The translations under genes were made by a program, and so were the position numbers. Below the pieces are notes generated by a model. That model was given only the letters and a program-made list of their open reading frames with translations. It made no database searches and was not told where the DNA came from. Shown piece by piece: positions 9,595 through 59,378 of a stretch of 64,000 bases of DNA. Numbering within the stretch: the first letter of the stretch is position 1; each line of letters begins with the position of its first letter. Origin of the DNA: Dehalococcoidia bacterium (GTDB lineage Bacteria > Chloroflexota > Dehalococcoidia > Lucifugimonadales > UBA3495); contig OZ244879.1 in NCBI GenBank assembly GCA_965221295.1, positions 3,281,603-3,345,602 of the forward strand, in the 5' to 3' direction.

Positions 9595-9669
9595 TGGAGC
9601 GGAAGACGGGATTCGAACCCGCGACCTTCTCCTTGGCAAGGAGACGCTCTACCACTGAGCCACTTCCGC
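9595..9669 (-). tRNA. tRNA-Gly (anticodon GCC), CCA encoded
   Basis: The reverse complement folds as a cloverleaf. Acceptor stem GCGGAAG/CTTCCGC, anticodon loop TTGCCAA, T-arm GGTTCGAATCC. Confidence 0.9.
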
Positions 9670-9794
9670 CCAAAATAGCTGGGCTGCGGCGTCCAATTCC
9701 AGAAAACTAGGCTTAGCCGCAAAATCAGTATATCGCGTTTCCACAACCCTGTACAGCGCTTGTACTCGTTCAGTACATTTGTGATCCCTGGAGC

Positions 9795-10392
9795 GTCCTG
9801 GGTGAACGGCCGTTGGTTGTGGTCGACGAGATTGCCGCGCTTCGCTCGCAATGACAGTGGAGGCTGGGCGCTGGCGTTCCCCCAACTGTCATTGCGAGGA
9901 GCGCCTCTTTATCTGTCATTGCGAGGAGCGCCAGCGACGCGGCAATCCCGGCGCCTGGGCGAACGGCCGCCAGGCGTCGATGCCGAGCGGCCGTTGGTTG
10001 TGATCAACGAGATTGCCGCGCTTCGCTCGCAATGACAGTAAAAGAACGCTCGCAATGACAGCAAAAAGGGATCGCAATGACGGCGGCAAAGGGCGGGGGC
10101 GCCTCCCACAACTGCCATTGCGAGGAGCGCCAGCGACGCGGCAATCCCGGCGCCTGGGCGGACGGCCGCCGGGCGTCGATGCCGAGCGGCCGTTGGTTGT
10201 GATCAACGAGATTGCCGCGCTTCGCTCGCAATGACAGTGGGTGTGGATCGCTATGACCGTAGCAACCGTCATTGCGAGGAGCGTTAGCGACGCGGCAATC
10301 CCGGCGCTTGGGCGAACGGCCGCCGGGCGTCGATGCCGAGCGGCCGTTGGTTGCGACCGACGAGATTGCCGCGCTTCGCTCGCAATGACAGT
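9795..10392. repeat. Cluster of about 4 copies (plus fragments) of a ~125-bp MITE/REP-like palindromic element
   Basis: Units are bounded by TGTCATTGCGAGGAGCG..GACGCGGCAATC and GAGATTGCCGCGCTTCGCTCGCAATGACA, which are imperfect inverted repeats of each other. Full copies lie near 9906-10035, 10105-10235 and 10265-10390. Confidence 0.85.
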
Positions 10393-10447
10393 GTGAGGGT
10401 AGGCGCTCGATGCAACAAGTCTCCTCAACCCTTGCCGACGGCGCCGG

Positions 10448-11968
10448 TCACAGGCCGCTGATTTCAAGCGTTCTAACCGCGTCGGCCTCGAAGTCGGCCA
10501 CGCGAATGGCGTGGTTGTTGGTGTCCGCGATGTACAGCAGAGGTTGACGGCCATTTTCGAAGACCGCGAAACTCAATCCGCTGGGCTCGCTGAAGGTCGC
10601 CAGTTTACCCGCGCCGTCGTGCAATCCCATGGCGCCGGAGCCCAGAACGGTTTGCGCCGAACGGGTCAGGGGCAGAATTTTCTTGATCTTGTGGTTGTAG
10701 GTGTCGGCGACGAACAACTCGCCCTGATGCCACTCGATGCCAATCGGATGCTGGAGGCGGACGTTGTGTTCCACCCCGTCGCGGTCGCCGAAGGCGAACA
10801 GGTCGATGCCCACCAACGTTGCCACCCGTCCGGTCGCCGGGTCGATGCCGGCGCTGCGCACACTGCTGGTTTCGGAGTCGGCGAAATATAGGATGGGGTC
10901 GCCGCTCCGGTCGTTGCCCACGACGATGCCGCTGGGCTGGGCCAGTGTCGCCTGCGCCAGTGGTCCGTTGTCGATGTTTTCGCCGCCCGTGCCAGCATGT
11001 GGACACACGGCGCCGTCGGCCAGCGACAACCGCCACAGCTGGTGTGTCCCAGCCATGGCGATGTAGAGGATGTCTTGGTGGTGGGCCAGATCCCAAGGAC
11101 TGCTGAGCGCGACCTGCGTACCTGGTCCCGCGGCGCGGCGGTCGTGTCCCTGTTGGCCCGTGCCGGCCACGGTGTCCACGATGCCGGCGCTGAGGTTGAC
11201 GCGGCGGATGGCGTGGTTCTCGGTGTCGGCTACGTAGAGGGCATCGCCCACCAGCTCCATCCCCTGTGGGTGGTTGAAGGCCGCGGTGGCATAACTGCCG
11301 TCTGCGAAGCCCTCGGCGCCGGATCCAATTGTGGCCTGCGTTTGTCCGTCCAGATCGGTGATCACGATGCGGTTGTGGTTGGTGTCGGCGATGAACAAGC
11401 GGTTGCCAGGGCCGTCGGCCAGAACCTTGCCGGGGAAGGCCAGGGGCGTGTCCTGAGCTTCCTCAGGCGTCAGGCCCAAGTCGCGTCGGTCGATCAGGCC
11501 TTGTTCGTCGAATTCGGCGATCATACGCCCCAGCAAGTCATCGAAAGCCTCGTAGGGCAGCTCGCCTTCATGTTTGCCGATGACCTTTCCCTCGGGGTCA
11601 ACGAACATCAGCGTGGGCCAGGCTCTACAGGCGTACTGCCGCCACACCTCGAACTCGGCGTCGTTGACGATGGGATGCTTGAGTTCGTAGCGTTGGGCCG
11701 CCAACAACACGTTGTCGGCGTATTTTTCGTTGGGGAATTTGGCGGAATGCACGCCAATGACCACCAACTCGTCCGCGTATTTTTCTTCCATTTTCCGCAA
11801 CTGCGGAAACACGTGGACGCAGTTGATTCAACAGTAGGTCCAGAAGTCCAGGATGACCACCTTGCCGCGCAGGTCGGCCATGCTGAGCGGCCGGTCGGTG
11901 TTGATCCATTCGACGCTGGCGGGGAAATCCGGCGCGTTGACGGCGCCGGCGAAAGAACGGGTGGCCAT
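10448..11968 (-). CDS. Thioredoxin-like domain + NHL-repeat beta-propeller protein (NHLRC2-like), predicted selenoprotein
   Basis: ATG at 11968 with GGAGG 9 nt upstream. The frame stays open through one in-frame TGA (11830-11828) inside FWTYC-U-INC. The C-terminal part has repeated NHL motifs (ADTNNHAIR-like). Confidence 0.75.
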
Positions 11969-11983
11969 GGGTTGATTCCTCCA

Positions 11984-12036
11984 GGGGTGATCTATTGCCG
12001 GGGTGATCTATTGCCGGGGTGAGCTATTGTCTGGGG
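11984..12036. repeat. 3 x 16-bp tandem repeat in the 76-nt spacer upstream of the selenoprotein gene
   Basis: GGGGTGATCTATTGCC occurs twice, then GGGGTGAGCTATTGTC, then a partial TGGGG. Confidence 0.9.
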
Positions 12037-12044
12037 TTCCGGCG

Positions 12045-12854
12045 CTAATCGGCGCGGCCTTGTCGCACCGCCCGGGCGCGCTCGATGATGCGTCCGGCGT
12101 CGGCGACGGTGCGCTCCCGGTAGTCGGGCTGATCGGTGAGCAGGGGCTGCGCCCGCTCTTTTTCTTGCTCATACTCCTGCTCTCCCGCATACGCGGAATA
12201 GATGTCGGGCGATATACTGAGCTGGAACCCGCGCAGTTCTTGGTCAACGCGGCGAATATGGCCCAACAGGTGTCCTATATCGTGGGTGCGCCGGTAGCGG
12301 ACGCTGTGGGCCTCTAGCAGGGCTTTCATCCCATGCTCCAACGCCGCCTGCGCCTGTTGACCGATGAGCAGATCAACGCGACCCAAGTCGATCAAGTCCA
12401 AGAAAGCCGTCAGGTGCGATTCAGCGTGCAGGAGCCGGTTGTTGTAGTTCCTCCAGTCGTACTCGTACTCCGTCTCCATATCGTCCGCGTCGCGGTTGTG
12501 GTATTCCTCCGGGTTCTGCGTCATTATCACCCCGTCGAACAGAGCCTGAGTAGCAACGTGGTTGATGTATCGTTGGCCCTTGCTGAACCTATCCGCCGAG
12601 AACCAAACCAGTTGAACCGGTACCCGGCGTCCGTAGGTGGCCCGGACGACGCCTTCGGCCCACTCCTCAACCGATCCTTTGTACTCCCGGTCGGGCTCTG
12701 TGGCCTGCACCAGCATGATGTCAATGTCGGAACGGCTCTCTTCGTAGTCGCCCCGGGCCCGGGAGCCGAACAGGATGGTGGCCAGCGGCCGCTCCCGTTC
12801 GTGGACGGCTTGCGCGACGCTCAAGGCGCGCTGGTCGCAGGTAGTTGCGGTCAT
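12045..12854 (-). CDS. Fused minimal nucleotidyltransferase (MNT) + HEPN domain protein
   Basis: The N-terminus has LFGSRARGD...SDIDIML (GS-x-RGD, DxD). The C-terminus has an R-x4-H motif (RYRRTHDIGH) in a helical region. Confidence 0.7.
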   Translation of the reverse strand: MTATTCDQRALSVAQAVHERERPLATILFGSRARGDYEESRSDIDIMLVQATEPDREYKGSVEEWAEGVVRATYGRRVPVQLVWFSADRFSKGQRYINHVATQALFDGVIMTQNPEEYHNRDADDMETEYEYDWRNYNNRLLHAESHLTAFLDLIDLGRVDLLIGQQAQAALEHGMKALLEAHSVRYRRTHDIGHLLGHIRRVDQELRGFQLSISPDIYSAYAGEQEYEQEKERAQPLLTDQPDYRERTVADAGRIIERARAVRQGRAD

Positions 12855-54428: not shown

Positions 54429-55076
54429 CTATTGGTTCACCACCACCTGGGCCACCTGCACCACGCGGTCATGCAGCAAGTAGCCCTGGCGGAGGACTTC
54501 CACGATGCTGCCCGATTCCGCGCCGTCCACCTGGGCCATGCCCACGGCCTCGTGGAGTTCAGGGTTGAAGGGCTCGCCGATGGATTCGATTTTGGCGACG
54601 CCCTGGGCCTCCAGGAAACCAGCGAGTTTGCGCTGAATCAGACGCACGCCGCGCGCCCAGGAATCGGCTGCAGGATCATCAGGCGCGGCGGCGTTGCCAC
54701 TTTCCAGGTGGTTCACCGCCAGGTCCAGTTCGTCAACTATGGGCAGAAGCTGCACCAACAACCGGCTGTTGGCCTGCTGCTGGATATTCAGCCGTTCCTC
54801 GTCGTGGCGGCGCCGGGCGTTGGCCAGATCAGCTTGGCCCCGTTGCACCGCGTCGATCTGGCGGTCGATCTCCGCGCGGGCGTCGGCCAGGGCGGCGCGG
54901 AGCAGCTCGGCTTCCTGCTCCGGGGTAACGGGTGGTTCCGCCACGGAACCGCCGTCAAGGCCGGCCGTCTCGCGGACTTCGGGGGAAGCTTGGGCGGCAT
55001 CCACGGGTGGGTTGGCTTCGGCGCGGCCGGGGTCTGGGCGGTTTGGATCCGGGGGCATGTTTGGTTCGCTGGTCAT
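54429..55076 (-). CDS. grpE: Nucleotide exchange factor GrpE
   Basis: GrpE-like C-terminus (FNPELHEAV...[13 protein letters not shown]). Its ATG overlaps the hspR stop as ATGA. Confidence 0.9.
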
Positions 55077-55609
55077 TGGGCGTTCCTGTTGGGGTTGTTA
55101 GACGCCGGTGGCTCCGGGGCGGGGAGGCTGAGGCTGGCGCACAGCAGGGAGACTTCATCGTGGATGCGCTCCGCGGTGAGGCTCCGATCCTCCGATCTGG
55201 AAAGTCGTCGGGTGAATACGTTGAGGTTATTGACGAGTTTCAAAGCGAACTCGACGCCGGCTAGGTTCAATCCGAGATTATCCATCAGGTGGCGAATCAG
55301 CAGGACCTTACGCAGGTCATCCTGAGAGTACAGGCGCAGCATTCCCATGGTTCGCACGGGTTGGATGAGGCCGAGGCGCTCGTATTTGCGGAGGGTTTGC
55401 GGGTGCATTTCCAGCAGGCGAGCGGCTACGGAAATTATGTAAACGCCCTCCAGCTCTCCGGCCGGGGTCGTCGCGTCTTGGGGCTTATCGCCATTGGCAT
55501 TTGCATCGGCGCTGCCCGACCAGGAAGACGGAACATCAGCAATGGGGGCAGGATACGCCTCCAACTGTCGGCTTCGGATCCGCGCTTGTCTGGGCCATCG
55601 TTGCTGCAT
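55073..55609 (-). CDS. hspR: MerR-family heat-shock regulator HspR
   Basis: MerR HTH (YIISVAARLLEMHPQTLRKYERLGL) at the head of the grpE-dnaK operon. The start was set at ATG 55609 (GGAGAGG upstream) because the longer ORF would include the predicted -10 box. Confidence 0.8.
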   Translation of the reverse strand: MQQRWPRQARIRSRQLEAYPAPIADVPSSWSGSADANANGDKPQDATTPAGELEGVYIISVAARLLEMHPQTLRKYERLGLIQPVRTMGMLRLYSQDDLRKVLLIRHLMDNLGLNLAGVEFALKLVNNLNVFTRRLSRSEDRSLTAERIHDEVSLLCASLSLPAPEPPASNNPNRNAQ

Positions 55610-55645
55610 CTCAATACCTCTCCGTCCTGGGTACCATGCCACTGA

Positions 55646-55674
55646 ATTATATCCCATGCTACGATAGCTGTAAA
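55646..55674 (-). promoter_or_regulatory. Sigma-70-type promoter of the hspR-grpE-dnaK operon
   Basis: The minus strand reads TTTACA (55674-55669), a 17-nt spacer, then TATAAT (55651-55646). Confidence 0.6.
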
Positions 55675-55677
55675 TGG

Positions 55678-55698
55678 CTTGACACAGTATGTATCAAG
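55678..55698. promoter_or_regulatory. HAIR-like HspR operator
   Basis: CTTGACA-N7-TATCAAG compared with the actinobacterial HAIR consensus CTTGAGT-N7-ACTCAAG. It lies 4 nt upstream of the -35 box. Confidence 0.6.
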
Positions 55699-55707
55699 TC
55701 GTATATT
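55679..55707 (+). promoter_or_regulatory. Divergent sigma-70-type promoter overlapping the HAIR-like site
   Basis: TTGACA (55679-55684), a 17-nt spacer, then TATATT (55702-55707). It points toward the zinc-ribbon ORF. Confidence 0.5.
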
Positions 55708-55873
55708 CCGCCCATGGCGACTCCGGGCGCCGCTGGCGCAGAATCGGGCAATCGGAAAATTCGACAAAAGGCAATCCAAACCGCTCTTCAAATCCGTACC
55801 ACTACTGAACCACCGGAATTTGAAACGCCAGACACGACCAATACGCGCAAGTCGAGTCGGCGAGGAGGCAACC

Positions 55874-56080
55874 ATGAAACTCAGATTCGGCGCTTGTCCA
55901 AAATGTCAGGGCGACCTTCAGGTGAGGCGAGACGTTTACGGCATGTTCAGCAACTGCCTGCAGTGCGGATTGCAGTTGGACTTGGAAACAACCGACCCGG
56001 CGCTGCCGGGCCACGGGGTGGAGCCAGCCCTCATTGATCTGCGAGCGCGAGAGCGGGAGCAGCTGGCGCGGGCGGCATAG
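55874..56080 (+). CDS. Small zinc-ribbon protein (68 aa)
   Basis: CPKC...18 residues...CLQC. GGAGG lies 5 nt upstream of the ATG. An intrinsic terminator follows. Confidence 0.6.
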   Translation: MKLRFGACPKCQGDLQVRRDVYGMFSNCLQCGLQLDLETTDPALPGHGVEPALIDLRAREREQLARAA

Positions 56081-56106
56081 TCGGCGGCGCGTCAGGGACG
56101 TGAATC

Positions 56107-56137
56107 AGGGGCGGGTTGCAACCCGCCCCTGCTTTTT
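56107..56137 (+). terminator. Rho-independent terminator
   Basis: AGGGGCGGGT, loop TGCA, ACCCGCCCCT, followed by GCTTTTT. Confidence 0.8.
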
Positions 56138-56177
56138 GGATGATCATGGCGTCTCGATGGCCATCAACGAGTGAGGA

Positions 56178-56870
56178 TCATCGGGTGAGTTCCGGCCAGA
56201 ATCGTTCTTCCTGCCAAGGGTCGCCATTGTTGTTGTACCCGCGCTGTTCCCAGAACCCGGGGGCGTCCTCGGCCATCAATTCGATTCCATTCACCCACTT
56301 GGCCGACTTCCAGCCGTAGCGGCTGGGAACCACCAATCTCAGCGGCCAACCGTGATCCTTGCCGATCTCCGCGCCGTTCTGCCGGTGGGCCAGCAACCCT
56401 TCGGATAGGGCCAGATCCAGCGGCAGGTTGGTGGTGTAATCGCCGAAGCAATGGGCCATGATGTGCCGGGCCTCGGGACTGACGCCGGCCGATTCCAGCA
56501 AATCCGCCAGCCAAACGCCCTCCCAGGTTTGGTCCAGGGCTGACCATTGGGTGACGCAGTGGAAGTCGGCGTTCAGCGTGATCCACGGCAGAGCGCAGAA
56601 CTGGGACCAGTCCAGTTCCAATTCCCGCTCCACTAATCCCCAGACCCGGAAGCGCCACGCGGCCAGGTCAACCTCTGGTGTGTCGCCGTAGGTCAAGACC
56701 GGGAAGGTTTTGGCGACGAACTGTCCGGGAGGCACCCGTTCGCCAGCCGGCGGCGCGATCTTCACCTGGTCGGGCCGTTTCAACCCGAACTCCGGCTGCA
56801 CGCCGGCGGACTGTTGGCTTTGCTGGCTGGAAGTAGGCTGGCCGGAGGTAGCCTGATTGGAAGTTGTCAT
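56178..56870 (-). CDS. Sulfite-oxidase-fold molybdopterin-binding oxidoreductase (MsrP/YedY-like catalytic domain)
   Basis: FHCVTQWS...WEGV...GWPLRLVVP..YG.KS.KW. No signal peptide is evident. Confidence 0.8.
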   Translation of the reverse strand: MTTSNQATSGQPTSSQQSQQSAGVQPEFGLKRPDQVKIAPPAGERVPPGQFVAKTFPVLTYGDTPEVDLAAWRFRVWGLVERELELDWSQFCALPWITLNADFHCVTQWSALDQTWEGVWLADLLESAGVSPEARHIMAHCFGDYTTNLPLDLALSEGLLAHRQNGAEIGKDHGWPLRLVVPSRYGWKSAKWVNGIELMAEDAPGFWEQRGYNNNGDPWQEERFWPELTR

Positions 56871-56939
56871 GGGAGAACTCCTGGATCCGCCGTCCTGACG
56901 GCTCAGGTGACGTGGCGAGTGAGGTTCAAAACGCTCGAA

Positions 56940-57992
56940 TCACGGGTTGGCAAAGATGGTTCCGGGCGGGCCGTCGGATACGCTGCCAACGATGGCGGCG
57001 CAGGGGGCGCCTTCCTCCAGCAATGCGGCGACCAGAGCGTCCGCCTTGGCGGAGGGTACGGACATCAGGAGGCCGCCAGAGGTTTGAGCGTCGCACAGCA
57101 ACATCCGGTCATCATCGGTTAAGGACGGATTCCAGGTCACCGCGTCGTTGACGCTGCTGACGTTGCGATGGGTGCCGCCGGGGGCTACGCCCCGCTCCAG
57201 CAGCTCCCTGGTTCCCGGCAACATGGGAACGGACCTCAGGTTGACCTCGGCGGAAACGCCGCTGCCCTTCACCATGCTCTTGAGGTGGCCCAGCAAGCCG
57301 AAACCGGTAATGTCAGTGGCGGCGTTGACGCCAACCCGCTGCATGGCCAGGGCGGCCGGACGGTTCAACGCGGCCATGTTTTCCACGGCGCTGGCCAAAA
57401 CGTCAGCGCTGACCACTCCTTGCTTGCCGGCGGTGGTGATGATGCCGGTTCCGATGGGTTTGCTCAGGATCAAGACGTCGCCGGGCTGGGCGTTGGCGTT
57501 GCTGACCTGCTTGCCGGGCTCCACGACGCCGATCACGGACAGACCGTACTTGGGTTCGGGATCGTCCACGGTGTGGCCGCCGACGATGAGGCATTCGGCT
57601 TCGGCGGCTTTGGCGTAGCCGCCCTGCAGGGTTTTGCCCAGGATCTCCTTGTCCAGCGAGGCGGGGAATCCGACGACGTTGAGGGCGATCAGGGGTTTGC
57701 CGCCCATGGCGTACACGTCGGACAGGGAGTTGGCGGCTGCAATCGCCCCAAACTCGTAGGGATCGTCGGTGATTGGAGGGAAGAAGTCCACGGTTACGAT
57801 GAGGGCGGTATCGTCGTTGAGACGGTACACGGCCGCATCGTCGCCGGTTTCGGCGCCCACCAGCAAGTCAGGATGCCGCAGGAGGGGCACGTAGCTCAGG
57901 ACCTGGCCCAGGTCCTCGAGGCTCAGCTTGGCCGCTCAACCTGCGCAGTGGGAAAGCTCGGTAAGGCGGACGGGCAGTTCGGTTTGAGTCAT
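56940..57992 (-). CDS. selD: Selenide, water dikinase SelD, itself Sec-containing (in-frame TGA at codon 19)
   Basis: The frame ATG 57992 ... LTELSHCAG-TGA(57938-57936)-AAKLS continues into the annotated 316-aa ORF. The position matches the G(C/U)GCK active-site loop of SelD. Confidence 0.8.
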
Positions 57993-58202
57993 GCGGAGAC
58001 AGTCCTATTGGTCGAATTGTCTGAGGAAGTCAATCCAGCTCTTGGCGGGAATACCCGCCAGCGGAAGATCGAGCGTTTCATCCATGTACTGGTCCATTAT
58101 ACCCATCCTGGCCAGTCTCCCAAAATTGCCGCCGCCATCGCTCACGGGTCGGTCGGCGCGGGGATTTTTAGGATCCCTGCGCCAATGCGTCATCTCCGCG
58201 CT

Positions 58203-59378
58203 TCACAGTTGGTATTCCGGGCGGCGCAGCAGTTGGCGGGCAATCACCAGCCGCATGATCTCGTTGGTGCCTTCCCCGATGATCATGAGAGGGGCGTCGC
58301 GGTAGTAGCGCTCGACGGGAAAGTCCTTGGTGTAGCCATAGCCGCCGTGGATGCGCATGGCCTCCATGGCCACCTCGCCGCAGACCTCGCTGGCGAAGAG
58401 CTTGGCCATTCCCGACTCCAGGTCGATGCGCTGGCCGCTGTCCTTCTTGGCGGCGGCGTCGTACACCAACAGGCGGGCTGCTTGGATCTTGGTGGCCATG
58501 TCGGCGATTTTCAGCTGGATGGCCTGATGCTGGCTGATGGGCTGGCCGAAGGTTTCCCGCTGCTGCACATAGCGCATCGAGGCGTCCAGGGCGGCCTGGG
58601 CGACCCCGACGGCGCGGGCGGCCACGTTGATCCGGCCGGTTTCCAGACCGCCCATCACCTGGGCGAAGCCGACGTTCTCGACCTCTCCAATCAAATTTTC
58701 AGCGGGGATGCGGAAGTCTTCGAAGAACAGCTCACAGGTGTCGAGGCCGCGGTAACCCAGCTTGTCGAGATGGCGGCCCACCTTGAAGCCGGGGCTGCCG
58801 TCCTTCTCGATGACGAAGGCGGACAGGCCACGGTGCTTGATGGACGGGTCAGGATCGGTGCGGGCCAGCAGGCAAAAGGCGTCGCCGGAGTCGGCGTTGG
58901 TGATGAACATCTTGGAGCCGTTGACGACGTATTCCTCGCCATCCTTGACGGCGCGGGTTTGCAGGGCGCCCACGTCGCTGCCGCCGCCGGGCTCGGTGAG
59001 GGCCAAACCGCCGCGCATTTCGCCGCTGGCCAGCCGGGGCAGGAACCGCCGTTGTTGCTCCGGGGTTCCGTGTTGGGCCAGCACGTAGGTCAGGATGTGG
59101 TGGGTGCCCAGGGCGCCGGTGAGGGCCATGTATCCCTTGCTGATCTCTTCGAAGATCATGGCAAAGGTCGTATAGTCCAGGCCCATGCCGCCGAATTCCT
59201 CCGGCACGTTGATGCCGAACAGGCCCAGCCCTTTCATCTGGTCAATGAGGTCGTAGGGAACGGTGTCGTTGGCGTCGTGTTCGGCTGCGACTGGCTCCAC
59301 CTCCTGGCGCACGAAATCGCGCACCATATTGACGATTTGCGAGCGGGCTTCGTCGGGAGTCTTGGCAATCGTGGTCAC
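58203..59378 (-). CDS. Acyl-CoA dehydrogenase
   Basis: 391 aa. Typical ACAD motifs (LTEPGGGSD; IYEGTNEI-like IGEGTNEI). GTG start with AGGAG upstream. Confidence 0.9.
   Translation of the reverse strand: MTTIAKTPDEARSQIVNMVRDFVRQEVEPVAAEHDANDTVPYDLIDQMKGLGLFGINVPEEFGGMGLDYTTFAMIFEEISKGYMALTGALGTHHILTYVLAQHGTPEQQRRFLPRLASGEMRGGLALTEPGGGSDVGALQTRAVKDGEEYVVNGSKMFITNADSGDAFCLLARTDPDPSIKHRGLSAFVIEKDGSPGFKVGRHLDKLGYRGLDTCELFFEDFRIPAENLIGEVENVGFAQVMGGLETGRINVAARAVGVAQAALDASMRYVQQRETFGQPISQHQAIQLKIADMATKIQAARLLVYDAAAKKDSGQRIDLESGMAKLFASEVCGEVAMEAMRIHGGYGYTKDFPVERYYRDAPLMIIGEGTNEIMRLVIARQLLRRPEYQL

What the first reader, a model, noticed from the sequence alone, without database searches (positions are those of the whole stretch)
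10448..11968. Thioredoxin-fold/NHL gene reads through an in-frame TGA at the redox motif (U-x-x-C): predicted selenoprotein
The ORF track starts this protein at 11812. The same frame continues upstream to an ATG at 11968, which has GGAGG 9 nt upstream, and is interrupted only by TGA at 11830-11828. The translation reads [59 protein letters not shown]. In NHLRC2-type thioredoxin-like domains this position is, as far as I recall, WTYCCINC. The TGA therefore replaces the first Cys of the CxxC pair, which is the classic Sec position in thiol-disulfide oxidoreductase-like selenoproteins. An 8-bp stem (CAACTGCG, 12-nt loop, CGCAGTTG; 11825-11798 on the minus strand) starts 2 nt after the TGA. That is where a bacterial SECIS hairpin would sit.
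Basis: partly seen in the sequence, partly recalled or inferred. Interest (0 to 1): 0.7.

Follow-up and report, generated by a model that had tools for sequence, protein, structure and literature searches.

The report
Selenocysteine form of bacterial NHLRC2-like oxidoreductase

Summary
On the minus strand, the frame from ATG 11968 to the stop at 10450-10448 is broken only by TGA 11830-11828, inside FWTYC-TGA-INC.

The selenoprotein reading is strongly supported:
- 72 of 80 related genome loci (Dehalococcoidia/SAR202, Chloroflexia, Rokubacteria, Gemmataceae, Fervidibacter) have TGA at this codon, with conserved coding sequence on both sides. The other 8 have TGC (Cys).
- Solved relatives SOQ1 and NHLRC2 read WTYCCINC there.
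- The window carries selD, itself with an in-frame TGA at the catalytic Cys position.
- A SelB is recorded on a contig of the same length as the one recorded for the window's protein.

The real element is an overlapping hairpin at 11809-11792, UUUCCGC-AGUU-GCGGAAA. It has an invariant 12-nt core with no synonymous variation, compensatory changes in the outer pairs, and 120/120 association with TGA in metagenomes.

NCBI names truncated homologues "alkyl hydroperoxide reductase". No catalogue or paper I could search lists an NHL-fused selenoprotein.

Verdict: a genuine, mis-annotated UxxC selenoprotein, a new member of a known kind. selA, tRNA-Sec and direct selenium incorporation remain unverified.

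The parts
10448..11968 (-). Full-length gene: 506 codons plus a TGA stop. It encodes a Trx-like + NHL beta-propeller protein with Sec at residue 47.
   Evidence: Single frame broken only by one TGA. Pfam Thioredoxin_8/AhpC-TSA/Redoxin plus NHL. SOQ1 7djj E=1.6e-128 and NHLRC2 6gc1 E=1.3e-119 over residues 9-505.
11978..11982 (-). Shine-Dalgarno-like GGAGG, 9 nt upstream of ATG 11968
   Evidence: Read directly from the sequence.
11828..11830 (-). In-frame TGA, predicted Sec codon (U47) within C46-U47-I48-N49-C50
   Evidence: TGA in 72/80 genome loci and TGC in 8. 120/120 TGA in the metagenome scan. Aligned to the second Cys of CCINC in SOQ1.
11792..11809 (-). Predicted SECIS: 7-bp stem UUUCCGC/GCGGAAA with tetraloop AGUU. 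The loop starts 25 nt after the UGA.
   Evidence: 98.5% of cells paired, 2 pairs with compensatory changes, 0/500 shuffles reach the observed score. RNAalifold consensus. -9.5 kcal/mol. No synonymous variation at CCG CAG TTG CGG. Independent covariation in 91 distinct metagenome sequences.
11798..11825 (-). An alternative pairing that excludes the SECIS hairpin; not supported as the SECIS.
   Evidence: 88% paired, no compensatory change, closing pair broken in 53/67. A 12-14 nt loop and a 10-nt spacing both fall outside the bSECIS model.
11513..11944 (-). Thioredoxin-like domain (residues ~9-152)
   Evidence: Pfam AhpC-TSA 12-129, Thioredoxin_8 35-129. DipZ Trx-like domain matches residues 11-152.
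10454..11449 (-). NHL-repeat beta-propeller (residues ~174-505)
   Evidence: Pfam NHL. SOQ1 7djm and NHLRC2 6g7w propeller-only chains match residues 174-505.
56940..57992 (-). selD (selenophosphate synthetase), itself with an in-frame TGA at 57938-57936 (SHCAG-U-AAK, aligned to E. coli Cys17) and a hairpin at 57916-57898. Evidence that the genome decodes Sec.
   Evidence: tblastn with E. coli SelD gives 43% identity over 333 aa. Translation. TIGR00476 at 386 bits against a cut-off of 125. Hairpin AGGACCUG-GGC-CAGGUCCU at -11.6 kcal/mol.

Best explanation
The gene at 11968-10448 (minus strand) encodes one 506-residue cytoplasmic protein. It has an N-terminal thioredoxin-like domain and a six-bladed NHL beta-propeller, and it belongs to the NHLRC2/SOQ1 family.

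Proposed mechanism:
- Codon 47 (UGA) is decoded as selenocysteine.
- SelB with GTP and Sec-tRNA(Sec) is recruited by an in-frame SECIS hairpin that begins 18 nt after the UGA: 7-bp stem UUUCCGC/GCGGAAA, loop AGUU with the G-U dinucleotide, coordinates 11809-11792.
- The product carries a C-U-I-N-C centre. Sec takes the N-terminal, attacking position of the CxxC pair, equivalent to SOQ1 C431 and NHLRC2 C90.
- It would act as a selenol/thiol-disulfide oxidoreductase, possibly a methionine-sulfoxide-type reductase, on a substrate held in the Trx/propeller cleft.

Shown here: the UGA/Cys alignment, conservation of both flanks, RNA-level selection and covariation of the hairpin, selD in the window, and a SelB attributable to the same contig.

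Inferred: actual Sec insertion, SelB binding to this hairpin, and the catalytic role and substrate.
For: 1. Only one TGA breaks the frame, and a GGAGG precedes the ATG.
2. In the protein search, 119 of the best 120 homologues are N-terminally truncated at the same point (start MHVFPQLRK...). The one full-length hit, P0106, reads WTYCCINC.
3. 72/80 genome loci from Dehalococcoidia/SAR202, Chloroflexia, Rokubacteria, Gemmataceae and Fervidibacter have TGA at this codon. Upstream and downstream protein sequence is conserved and wobble positions vary. The other 8 (Acidobacteria, Chthonomonadaceae and others) have TGC.
4. Codons +8 to +11 (CCG CAG TTG CGG) have zero third-position entropy in 71 distinct Sec sequences. 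Other Pro/Leu/Arg codons show 1.1-1.8 bits. The Cys forms vary at these positions and read IIPDLKK.
5. Hairpin A: 98.5% paired, UA>CG in 11 sequences and UA>GC in 4. It is the RNAalifold consensus. In L074/L078 the 3' arm is shifted one nt out of the reading frame, yet the stem is kept. In 91 distinct metagenome sequences the three outer pairs are 91/100/88% paired with UA/CG/GC/UG types, while the 4th and 5th positions outward are 23%/2% paired.
6. Hairpin A meets every criterion of the published bSECIS model: loop 3-9 nt, stem 4-16 bp, G in the first two loop positions followed by U, 16-37 nt from UGA, MFE <= -7.5 kcal/mol (PMC13188914; -9.5 kcal/mol).
7. A metagenome pattern allowing TGN at the codon plus the 12-mer returned 120/120 TGA.
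8. selD is in the window and carries its own Sec codon and hairpin. SelB P0185 lies on a contig of 3,367,335 bp, the same length as the contig recorded for the window's protein P0001.
9. TGA is an ordinary stop here: it terminates this gene and selD.
Against: - There is no direct evidence of selenium incorporation.
- selA and tRNA-Sec were not found in the 64-kb window or in about 2.4 Mb of related loci. The rest of the genome could not be searched.
- No Rfam SECIS family matches.
Its 6-bp core AAYUGY/GCAGUU can pair in every Sec-form sequence, so it cannot be excluded as a competing or auxiliary fold.
- The catalytic function is extrapolated from SOQ1. NHLRC2 showed no insulin-reductase activity (PMC6107167).
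Confidence: 0.9

Rival explanations
1. The reader's hairpin (stem 11825-11818 / 11805-11798, 12-nt loop) is the functional SECIS, or both folds act together. In the combined version it sequesters the SECIS loop until the ribosome melts it.
For: It folds at -10.0 kcal/mol in isolation. Its 6-bp core AAYUGY/GCAGUU can pair in all 67 distinct Sec sequences and in none of the Cys forms.
Against: No pair shows a change on both sides. The shuffle control carries no information because the 3' arm is invariant. The closing pair is broken in 53/67 sequences and the first pair in 9/67. The 5' arm is the Asn-Cys codons of the active site, which are fixed in the Cys forms too. The loop of 12-14 nt and the 10-nt distance from UGA violate the bSECIS model. 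Inference from ribosome footprints: nt +5 to +12 lie inside the mRNA channel when UGA is in the A site, so this stem cannot exist at the moment of decoding.
Confidence: 0.06
2. The TGA is a real stop. The gene is a pseudogene, or only the C-terminal ~447-455 residues are made from GTG 11812 or ATG 11791, as public annotation has it.
For: Gene callers and NCBI annotate exactly this truncated product, as 'alkyl hydroperoxide reductase' of 444-452 aa.
Against: The 46 upstream codons are conserved as protein across phyla with free wobble positions. The truncated product would lack beta-1 and the whole CxxC active site of the Trx fold. The same stop is kept in 72 genomes and 120 metagenome contigs. 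A broken gene would not hold a covarying hairpin just downstream.
Confidence: 0.02
3. UGA is read through without Sec, either by a near-cognate Trp/Cys/Gly tRNA or by a reassigned genetic code.
For: Some bacterial lineages reassign UGA (established knowledge). No tRNA-Sec was located.
Against: TGA terminates this very gene and selD, so it is not reassigned. The position is the redox Cys, where Sec/Cys pairs are the rule. The hairpin fits the SelB-type model. selD (itself with a Sec codon) and SelB are present.
Confidence: 0.02

Closest known systems
Human NHLRC2 (PDB 6gc1/6g7w; mutated in FINCA disease)
   Same: [quoted passage not shown] Same CC(I/V)NC motif at the N-terminus of helix alpha-1, facing the propeller cleft (PMC6107167).
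   Different: NHLRC2 has Cys-90 where this protein has Sec. It also has an extra C-terminal beta-stranded domain that is absent here. Its biochemical activity is unknown, and it showed no insulin-reductase activity.
Arabidopsis SOQ1 lumenal region (PDB 7djj)
   Same: Best solved relative (E=1.6e-128 over residues 9-505). It reads DFWTYCCINC aligned residue for residue. The redox pair C431-C434 corresponds to U47-C50. It is reported as redox-active with methionine sulfoxide reductase activity (bioRxiv 10.1101/2024.11.01.621559).
   Different: SOQ1 is a thylakoid membrane protein with HAD, TM and C-terminal domains. Electrons pass from the Trx-like domain to the C-terminal domain, and the bacterial protein has no such domain. 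It is an all-Cys protein.
[quoted passage not shown]
   Same: UxxC motif in a Trx-fold domain that hits PF00578 and PF08534 above their cut-offs. In-frame bSECIS just downstream. Sec/Cys pairs (PMC13188914 and PMC9312934).
   Different: Those entries are defined by a single domain. None is described with an NHL propeller, and no searchable paper links NHL/NHLRC2 with Sec. Whether their representative accessions are related to this protein could not be checked.
E. coli fdhF-type / consensus bacterial SECIS
   Same: A hairpin inside the coding region downstream of UGA, with a small apical loop carrying G-U, within the 16-37 nt distance window.
   Different: A minimal 7-bp perfect stem with a tetraloop and no bulged U. 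The 12-nt core is frozen across phyla, whereas bSECIS sequences are usually unrelated between genes. No Rfam SECIS model matches.

Membership tests
Bacterial selenoprotein gene (SelB/SECIS-dependent UGA recoding) | In-frame UGA flanked on both sides by conserved coding sequence | tested here: met
   low amino-acid entropy and high wobble entropy on both sides in 71 distinct sequences.
Bacterial selenoprotein gene (SelB/SECIS-dependent UGA recoding) | Cys-containing homologues align Cys to the UGA | tested here: met
   P0106, 8 genome loci with TGC, and the SOQ1 residue alignment. NHLRC2's CCINC motif is taken from PMC6107167.
Bacterial selenoprotein gene (SelB/SECIS-dependent UGA recoding) | bSECIS model: apical loop 3-9 nt, upper stem 4-16 bp, G in the first two loop positions, 16-37 nt between UGA and loop, MFE <= -7.5 kcal/mol | tested here: met
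Hairpin 11809-11792: loop AGUU, 7 bp, 25 nt, -9.5 kcal/mol, with covariation.
Bacterial selenoprotein gene (SelB/SECIS-dependent UGA recoding) | Genome encodes selD | tested here: met
   Window 56940-57992, TIGR00476 at 386 bits.
Bacterial selenoprotein gene (SelB/SECIS-dependent UGA recoding) | Genome encodes selB | tested here: inconclusive
   SelB P0185 (PF09106/PF09107) is recorded on a 3,367,335-bp contig, the same length and contig count as for the window's protein P0001.
Bacterial selenoprotein gene (SelB/SECIS-dependent UGA recoding) | Genome encodes selA and tRNA-Sec (selC) | not testable with these tools
   Neither is in the 64-kb window or in the held loci.
Bacterial selenoprotein gene (SelB/SECIS-dependent UGA recoding) | Selenium demonstrably incorporated at the UGA | not testable with these tools
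   Needs 75Se labelling or mass spectrometry.
NHLRC2/SOQ1 family | [quoted passage not shown] | tested here: met
   Sequence matches to solved structures over residues 9-505. Pfam. No 3D model was computed.
NHLRC2/SOQ1 family | CC(I/V)NC motif at the CxxC position | tested here: met
   C-U-I-N-C, with U in place of the second Cys. The Sec forms read I or V at the next position.
NHLRC2/SOQ1 family | C-terminal domain after the propeller (beta-stranded domain in NHLRC2, CTD in SOQ1) | tested here: not met
   The protein ends at residue 506, at the end of the propeller match. According to PMC6107167, most bacterial orthologues lack this domain.
Rfam SECIS families | Match to a curated SECIS covariance model | tested here: not met
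   No SECIS hit at the gathering threshold or at E<=10.
Catalogued 'Prx-like thiol:disulfide oxidoreductase' selenoprotein family (PF00578, UxxC) | PF00578 domain with a UxxC motif | tested here: met
   AhpC-TSA at 43.4 bits against a cut-off of 26; UxxC present.
Catalogued 'Prx-like thiol:disulfide oxidoreductase' selenoprotein family (PF00578, UxxC) | Orthology with the family representative (WP_010940744.1) | not tested
   The representative sequence could not be retrieved with these tools.

The most novel reading that the evidence does not exclude
The Sec form of the NHLRC2/SOQ1 family is a so far uncatalogued selenoprotein family with a single origin. It spread through at least five bacterial lineages with one frozen SECIS. 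Nature's choice of Sec at the second Cys of CCINC would mark that residue as the catalytic nucleophile of a family whose chemistry is unresolved, namely the human disease protein NHLRC2 and plant SOQ1. A more speculative addition: the conserved alternative pairing AAYUGY/GCAGUU hides the SECIS loop until the translating ribosome unwinds it, giving ribosome-gated presentation of the SECIS.
Probability: 0.4. Interest if true: 0.6.

Novelty: new member of a known kind. Interest (0 to 1): 0.48.

Why it matters
- Annotation. Every close homologue in public databases is truncated by about 50 residues and has lost its active site. Those that carry a name are called "alkyl hydroperoxide reductase". 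Dehalococcoidia/SAR202 genomes, which are abundant in oceans, sponges and soils, are among the richest in selenoproteins.
- Enzymology. Sec/Cys pairs mark catalytic redox residues. Sec at the second Cys of CCINC argues that NHLRC2/SOQ1-type proteins are true redox catalysts, and it gives a naturally hyper-reactive orthologue for finding their substrate. The biochemical function of NHLRC2, which is essential in mouse and mutated in FINCA disease, is unknown.
- RNA. The element is one of the smallest and most sharply defined natural bacterial SECIS hairpins: 18 nt, covarying, with one lineage in which it slides out of the reading frame. It suits SelB-specificity studies and recombinant selenoprotein design.

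Tried and rejected
- Rfam at the gathering threshold over the whole window, and at E<=10 over 11700-11900, gave no SECIS family.
- ARAGORN on the window and all held loci, including the 120 metagenome loci, found no tRNA-Sec.
- tblastn with E. coli SelA, SelB and SelD against the window plus about 2.4 Mb of loci found selD in the window and selB in L011, L083 and L168, but no selA.
- An exact look-up of the window's truncated product P0001 returned nothing on record, so the source contig could not be read directly.
- A mechanical scan of the window for other TGA-interrupted ORFs with redox motifs and bSECIS-like hairpins gave 183 raw candidates. That is too noisy in this GC-rich sequence. Only this gene and selD stood out, and my strict hairpin filter even missed the true one because a terminal A-U pair does not form without flanking bases. 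I did not pursue this further.
- The 76-nt fold around the TGA has z = -1.84, which is uninformative on its own.
- The supplement of the BSepDB paper is not held, so I could not check whether this gene is already listed there under a generic family name.
- I considered and rejected the pseudogene, split-gene and code-reassignment readings (see rivals).
- I did not run a structure prediction, because sequence matches to solved structures were already decisive.
Full report
**Observation.** On the minus strand, the frame from ATG 11968 to the stop at 10450-10448 is 507 codons long and is broken only by TGA 11830-11828. The local sequence is ...[22 protein letters not shown].... GGAGG lies at 11982-11978, 9 nt before the ATG. 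The mechanical ORF list starts the protein at GTG 11812. All statements of fact in the finding are correct.

**What the protein is.** With Cys put in for the TGA, the product hits Pfam Thioredoxin_8, AhpC-TSA and Redoxin over residues 12-138, plus NHL repeats. Against solved structures it matches three proteins:
- the lumenal Trx-like/NHL region of Arabidopsis SOQ1 (7djj, E=1.6e-128, residues 9-505);
- human NHLRC2 (6gc1, E=1.3e-119);
- for the N-terminal domain alone, the Trx-like domain of mycobacterial DipZ.

The SOQ1 alignment reads DFWTYCCINC against the window's DFWTYC-U-INC. The TGA therefore sits at the second Cys of the CC(I/V)NC motif. That is the first Cys of the CxxC pair: SOQ1 C431-C434, NHLRC2 CCINC residues 89-93 at the N-terminus of helix alpha-1. 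The protein ends with the propeller. It lacks the C-terminal domains of NHLRC2 and SOQ1, which the NHLRC2 paper says is the usual bacterial architecture. I saw no N-terminal hydrophobic segment on reading the sequence, so I take it to be cytoplasmic.

**Conservation of the TGA.**
- A search of 5.8 billion proteins returned 120 best hits down to about 62% identity. Of these, 119 cover only 87-91% of the query. Every one I inspected begins just after the TGA (MHVFPQLRK..., or later starts such as MRKLEQ.../MEEKY...). The single full-length hit, P0106 (58% identity), reads WTYCCINC.
- Eighty genome loci were fetched from one-genome-per-species contigs. 72 have TGA at exactly this codon. They come from Dehalococcoidia/SAR202, Chloroflexia, Rokubacteria, a Gemmataceae MAG and Fervidibacter, including the complete genome of strain PD1.
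- The other 8 have TGC. They come from Acidobacteria/Blastocatellia, Chthonomonadaceae and two oddly labelled bins.
- The 20 codons before the TGA have low amino-acid entropy but 0.5-1.7 bits of third-position entropy. That is the signature of translated sequence under purifying selection.
- In a neighbour-joining tree the Sec forms and the Cys forms fall into separate clades.
- At the level of 50%-identity clusters, six of the best 150 hits start just after the TGA position. Most of the single-match family members are full-length. The Sec form is therefore a sub-clade of a broad Cys family.

**The RNA element.** All Sec-form sequences share an invariant 12-mer, CCGCAGTTGCGG (codons Pro-Gln-Leu-Arg, +24 to +35 from the U of UGA).
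- Third-position entropy at these four codons is zero in 71 distinct sequences. Other Pro, Leu and Arg codons in the same alignment show 1.1-1.8 bits. The Cys forms read IIPDLKK there with variable nucleotides.
- The 12-mer is the core of a hairpin, UUUCCGC-AGUU-GCGGAAA (window 11809-11792).
- On the 72-sequence alignment this helix is 98.5% paired. Two pairs carry compensatory changes (U-A to C-G in 11 sequences, U-A to G-C in 4). None of 500 shuffles reaches the observed covariation score, and sliding the 3' partners destroys the pairing.
- RNAalifold predicts the same seven pairs with no prior input.
- The two Chloroflexia sequences that count as "broken" keep the stem, with the 3' arm moved one nucleotide out of the reading frame (CCG CAG TTG GCG GAA, loop AGUUG, -12.7 kcal/mol). 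That is hard to explain by protein-level selection.
- As an independent test I scanned metagenome contigs with a pattern that allowed any TGN at the codon and required the 12-mer.
- Among their 91 distinct sequences, the three pairs outside the invariant core are 91%, 100% and 88% paired, with U-A, C-G, G-C and U-G types. The next two positions outward are 23% and 2% paired. The helix is therefore exactly 7 bp.
- Nearly every synonymous alternative in CCG-CAG-UUG-CGG would break a stem pair or the loop G-U. The one exception is the paired double change CCU/AGG, which is not seen. This explains why the core is frozen (inference from the codon table).

**Which hairpin is the SECIS.** The published consensus model requires an apical loop of 3-9 nt, a stem of 4-16 bp, a G (often followed by G or U) in the first two loop positions, 16-37 nt between UGA and the loop, and MFE <= -7.5 kcal/mol (PMC13188914).

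|---|---|---|
| Loop | AGUU, 4 nt | 12 nt in the window, 14 nt in most relatives |
| Stem | 7 bp | 8 bp; closing pair broken in 53 of 67 distinct sequences |
| Distance from UGA to loop | 25 nt | 10 nt |
| MFE in isolation | -9.5 kcal/mol | -10.0 kcal/mol |
| Compensatory changes | 2 pairs | none |

(Values.)

Its 3' arm is part of the true hairpin, so the two folds exclude each other. With UGA in the A site, nucleotides +5 to +12 should lie inside the ribosome's mRNA channel (established footprint geometry; inference). The 6-bp core AAYUGY/GCAGUU can pair in every Sec-form sequence. I therefore cannot exclude that it forms on untranslated mRNA, but nothing requires it.

**Sec machinery.**
- tblastn with E. 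coli SelD found a homologue in the window itself (56940-57992, minus strand; 43% identity; TIGR00476 at 386 bits).
- This selD is also interrupted by an in-frame TGA (57938-57936), in SHCAG-U-AAK, aligned to the catalytic Cys17 of E. coli SelD. It is followed by a hairpin AGGACCUG-GGC-CAGGUCCU whose loop starts 27 nt after the UGA. A Sec-dependent SelD makes sense only in a Sec-decoding organism.
- I took a Dehalococcoidia SelB from locus L011, where it lies 5 kb downstream of the NHL gene, and used it as a query. It found P0185 (621 aa, SelB winged-helix domains). P0185 is recorded on two contigs, the longest of 3,367,335 bp. Those are the same figures as for the window's own product P0001.
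- selA and tRNA-Sec were not found in the DNA available. The rest of the genome could not be searched.
- TGA is an ordinary stop here: it ends both this gene and selD.

**A natural control.** The contig that encodes the full-length Cys homologue P0106 (L084) has TGC at the codon. It still carries the intact TTTCCGCAGTTGCGGAAA. I read this as a recent TGA-to-TGC conversion with a fossil SECIS.

**Comparison with what is known.**
- UxxC thioredoxin-fold selenoproteins with in-frame bSECIS elements are a well-known kind. [quoted passage not shown]
- Dehalococcoidia are known to be rich in selenoproteins. UBA1141, the genome of locus L016, is credited with 49 genes.
- None of the reviews, the BSepDB paper or the Sargasso Sea paper mentions an NHL-fused family. 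No paper in the library combines NHLRC2 or NHL with bacterial Sec.
- NCBIfam has no model that reaches its cut-off for this protein.
- NCBI names the truncated homologues "alkyl hydroperoxide reductase" at 444-452 aa.
- I therefore file it as a new member of a known kind. The caveat is that it may already be counted under a generic family name in databases I could not query.

**Mechanism and function.** Shown: the recoding signals and their conservation. Inferred:
- SelB binds the AGUU hairpin and delivers Sec-tRNA(Sec) to codon 47.
- The product has a C46-U47-x-x-C50 centre that forms a selenenylsulfide with C50.
- The propeller presents a protein substrate to the cleft, as proposed for NHLRC2.

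SOQ1 is reported to be redox-active and to reduce methionine sulfoxide in its target LCNP. A comparable protein-repair or reductase role is my best guess for the bacterial enzyme, at moderate confidence.

**Verdict.** This is a genuine, conserved and mis-annotated selenoprotein gene. Interest is moderate: the class is familiar, but the family link to NHLRC2/SOQ1 and the unusually clean minimal SECIS add value.

Noticed in passing
window 56940-57992 (-), TGA at 57938-57936, hairpin at 57916-57898: selD (selenophosphate synthetase) is a second selenoprotein gene in the window. Its in-frame TGA aligns to the catalytic Cys17 of E. coli SelD (SHCAG-U-AAK). A strong hairpin, AGGACCUG-GGC-CAGGUCCU, follows. 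The ORF list shows only the 316-aa C-terminal part.
   Followed up: yes
window 9790-10400: Between the gene's stop codon and tRNA-Gly (9595-9669) lies an array of repeats: 3 copies of a 127-nt unit (94-100% identical), 4 copies of a 68-nt unit, and many direct and inverted copies of a ~22-nt motif, GCGCTTCGCTCGCAATGACAGT. It looks like a cluster of small repetitive or miniature mobile elements.
   Followed up: partly
window 11984-12029: A 16-nt tandem repeat (GGGGTGATCTATTGCC on the + strand, 2.9 copies, 96% matches) lies immediately upstream of the gene's ribosome-binding site, in the 76-nt gap after the preceding HEPN/nucleotidyltransferase gene.
   Followed up: no
L084 383-1876 (metagenome contig encoding P0106): This full-length Cys homologue has TGC at the Sec position but keeps an intact TTTCCGCAGTTGCGGAAA hairpin, an apparent recent Sec-to-Cys conversion with a fossil SECIS. 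The next gene encodes a Thioredox_DsbH (PF03190) protein.
   Followed up: partly
L074 and L078 (Chloroflexia), about 24-43 nt after the TGA: The 3' arm of the SECIS is shifted by one nucleotide relative to the reading frame (CCG CAG TTG GCG GAA, protein PQLAEV instead of PQLRK). This gives an AGUUG loop and keeps a 7-8 bp stem, so the RNA structure is preserved at the expense of the protein sequence.
   Followed up: partly
L011 16361-18226: In one Dehalococcoidia genome, selB lies about 5 kb downstream of the NHL selenoprotein gene. A large N6-adenine-methyltransferase-like ORF sits between them on the opposite strand.
   Followed up: partly
L034-L061, about 1-2 kb upstream of the gene: tRNA-Arg(TCT) sits at a nearly constant distance upstream of the NHL gene in many Dehalococcoidia loci. 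This is conserved synteny that the window does not share.
   Followed up: no
window 12045-12854 (-): The gene directly upstream on the same strand encodes a nucleotidyltransferase + HEPN fusion protein (Pfam NTP_transf_2 and HEPN), a domain pair typical of toxin-antitoxin or defence modules.
   Followed up: partly
window 55073-59378: The neighbours of selD are a molybdopterin-binding oxidoreductase domain protein (56178-56870), a MerR-family regulator (55073-55657) and an acyl-CoA dehydrogenase (58203-59378).
   Followed up: partly
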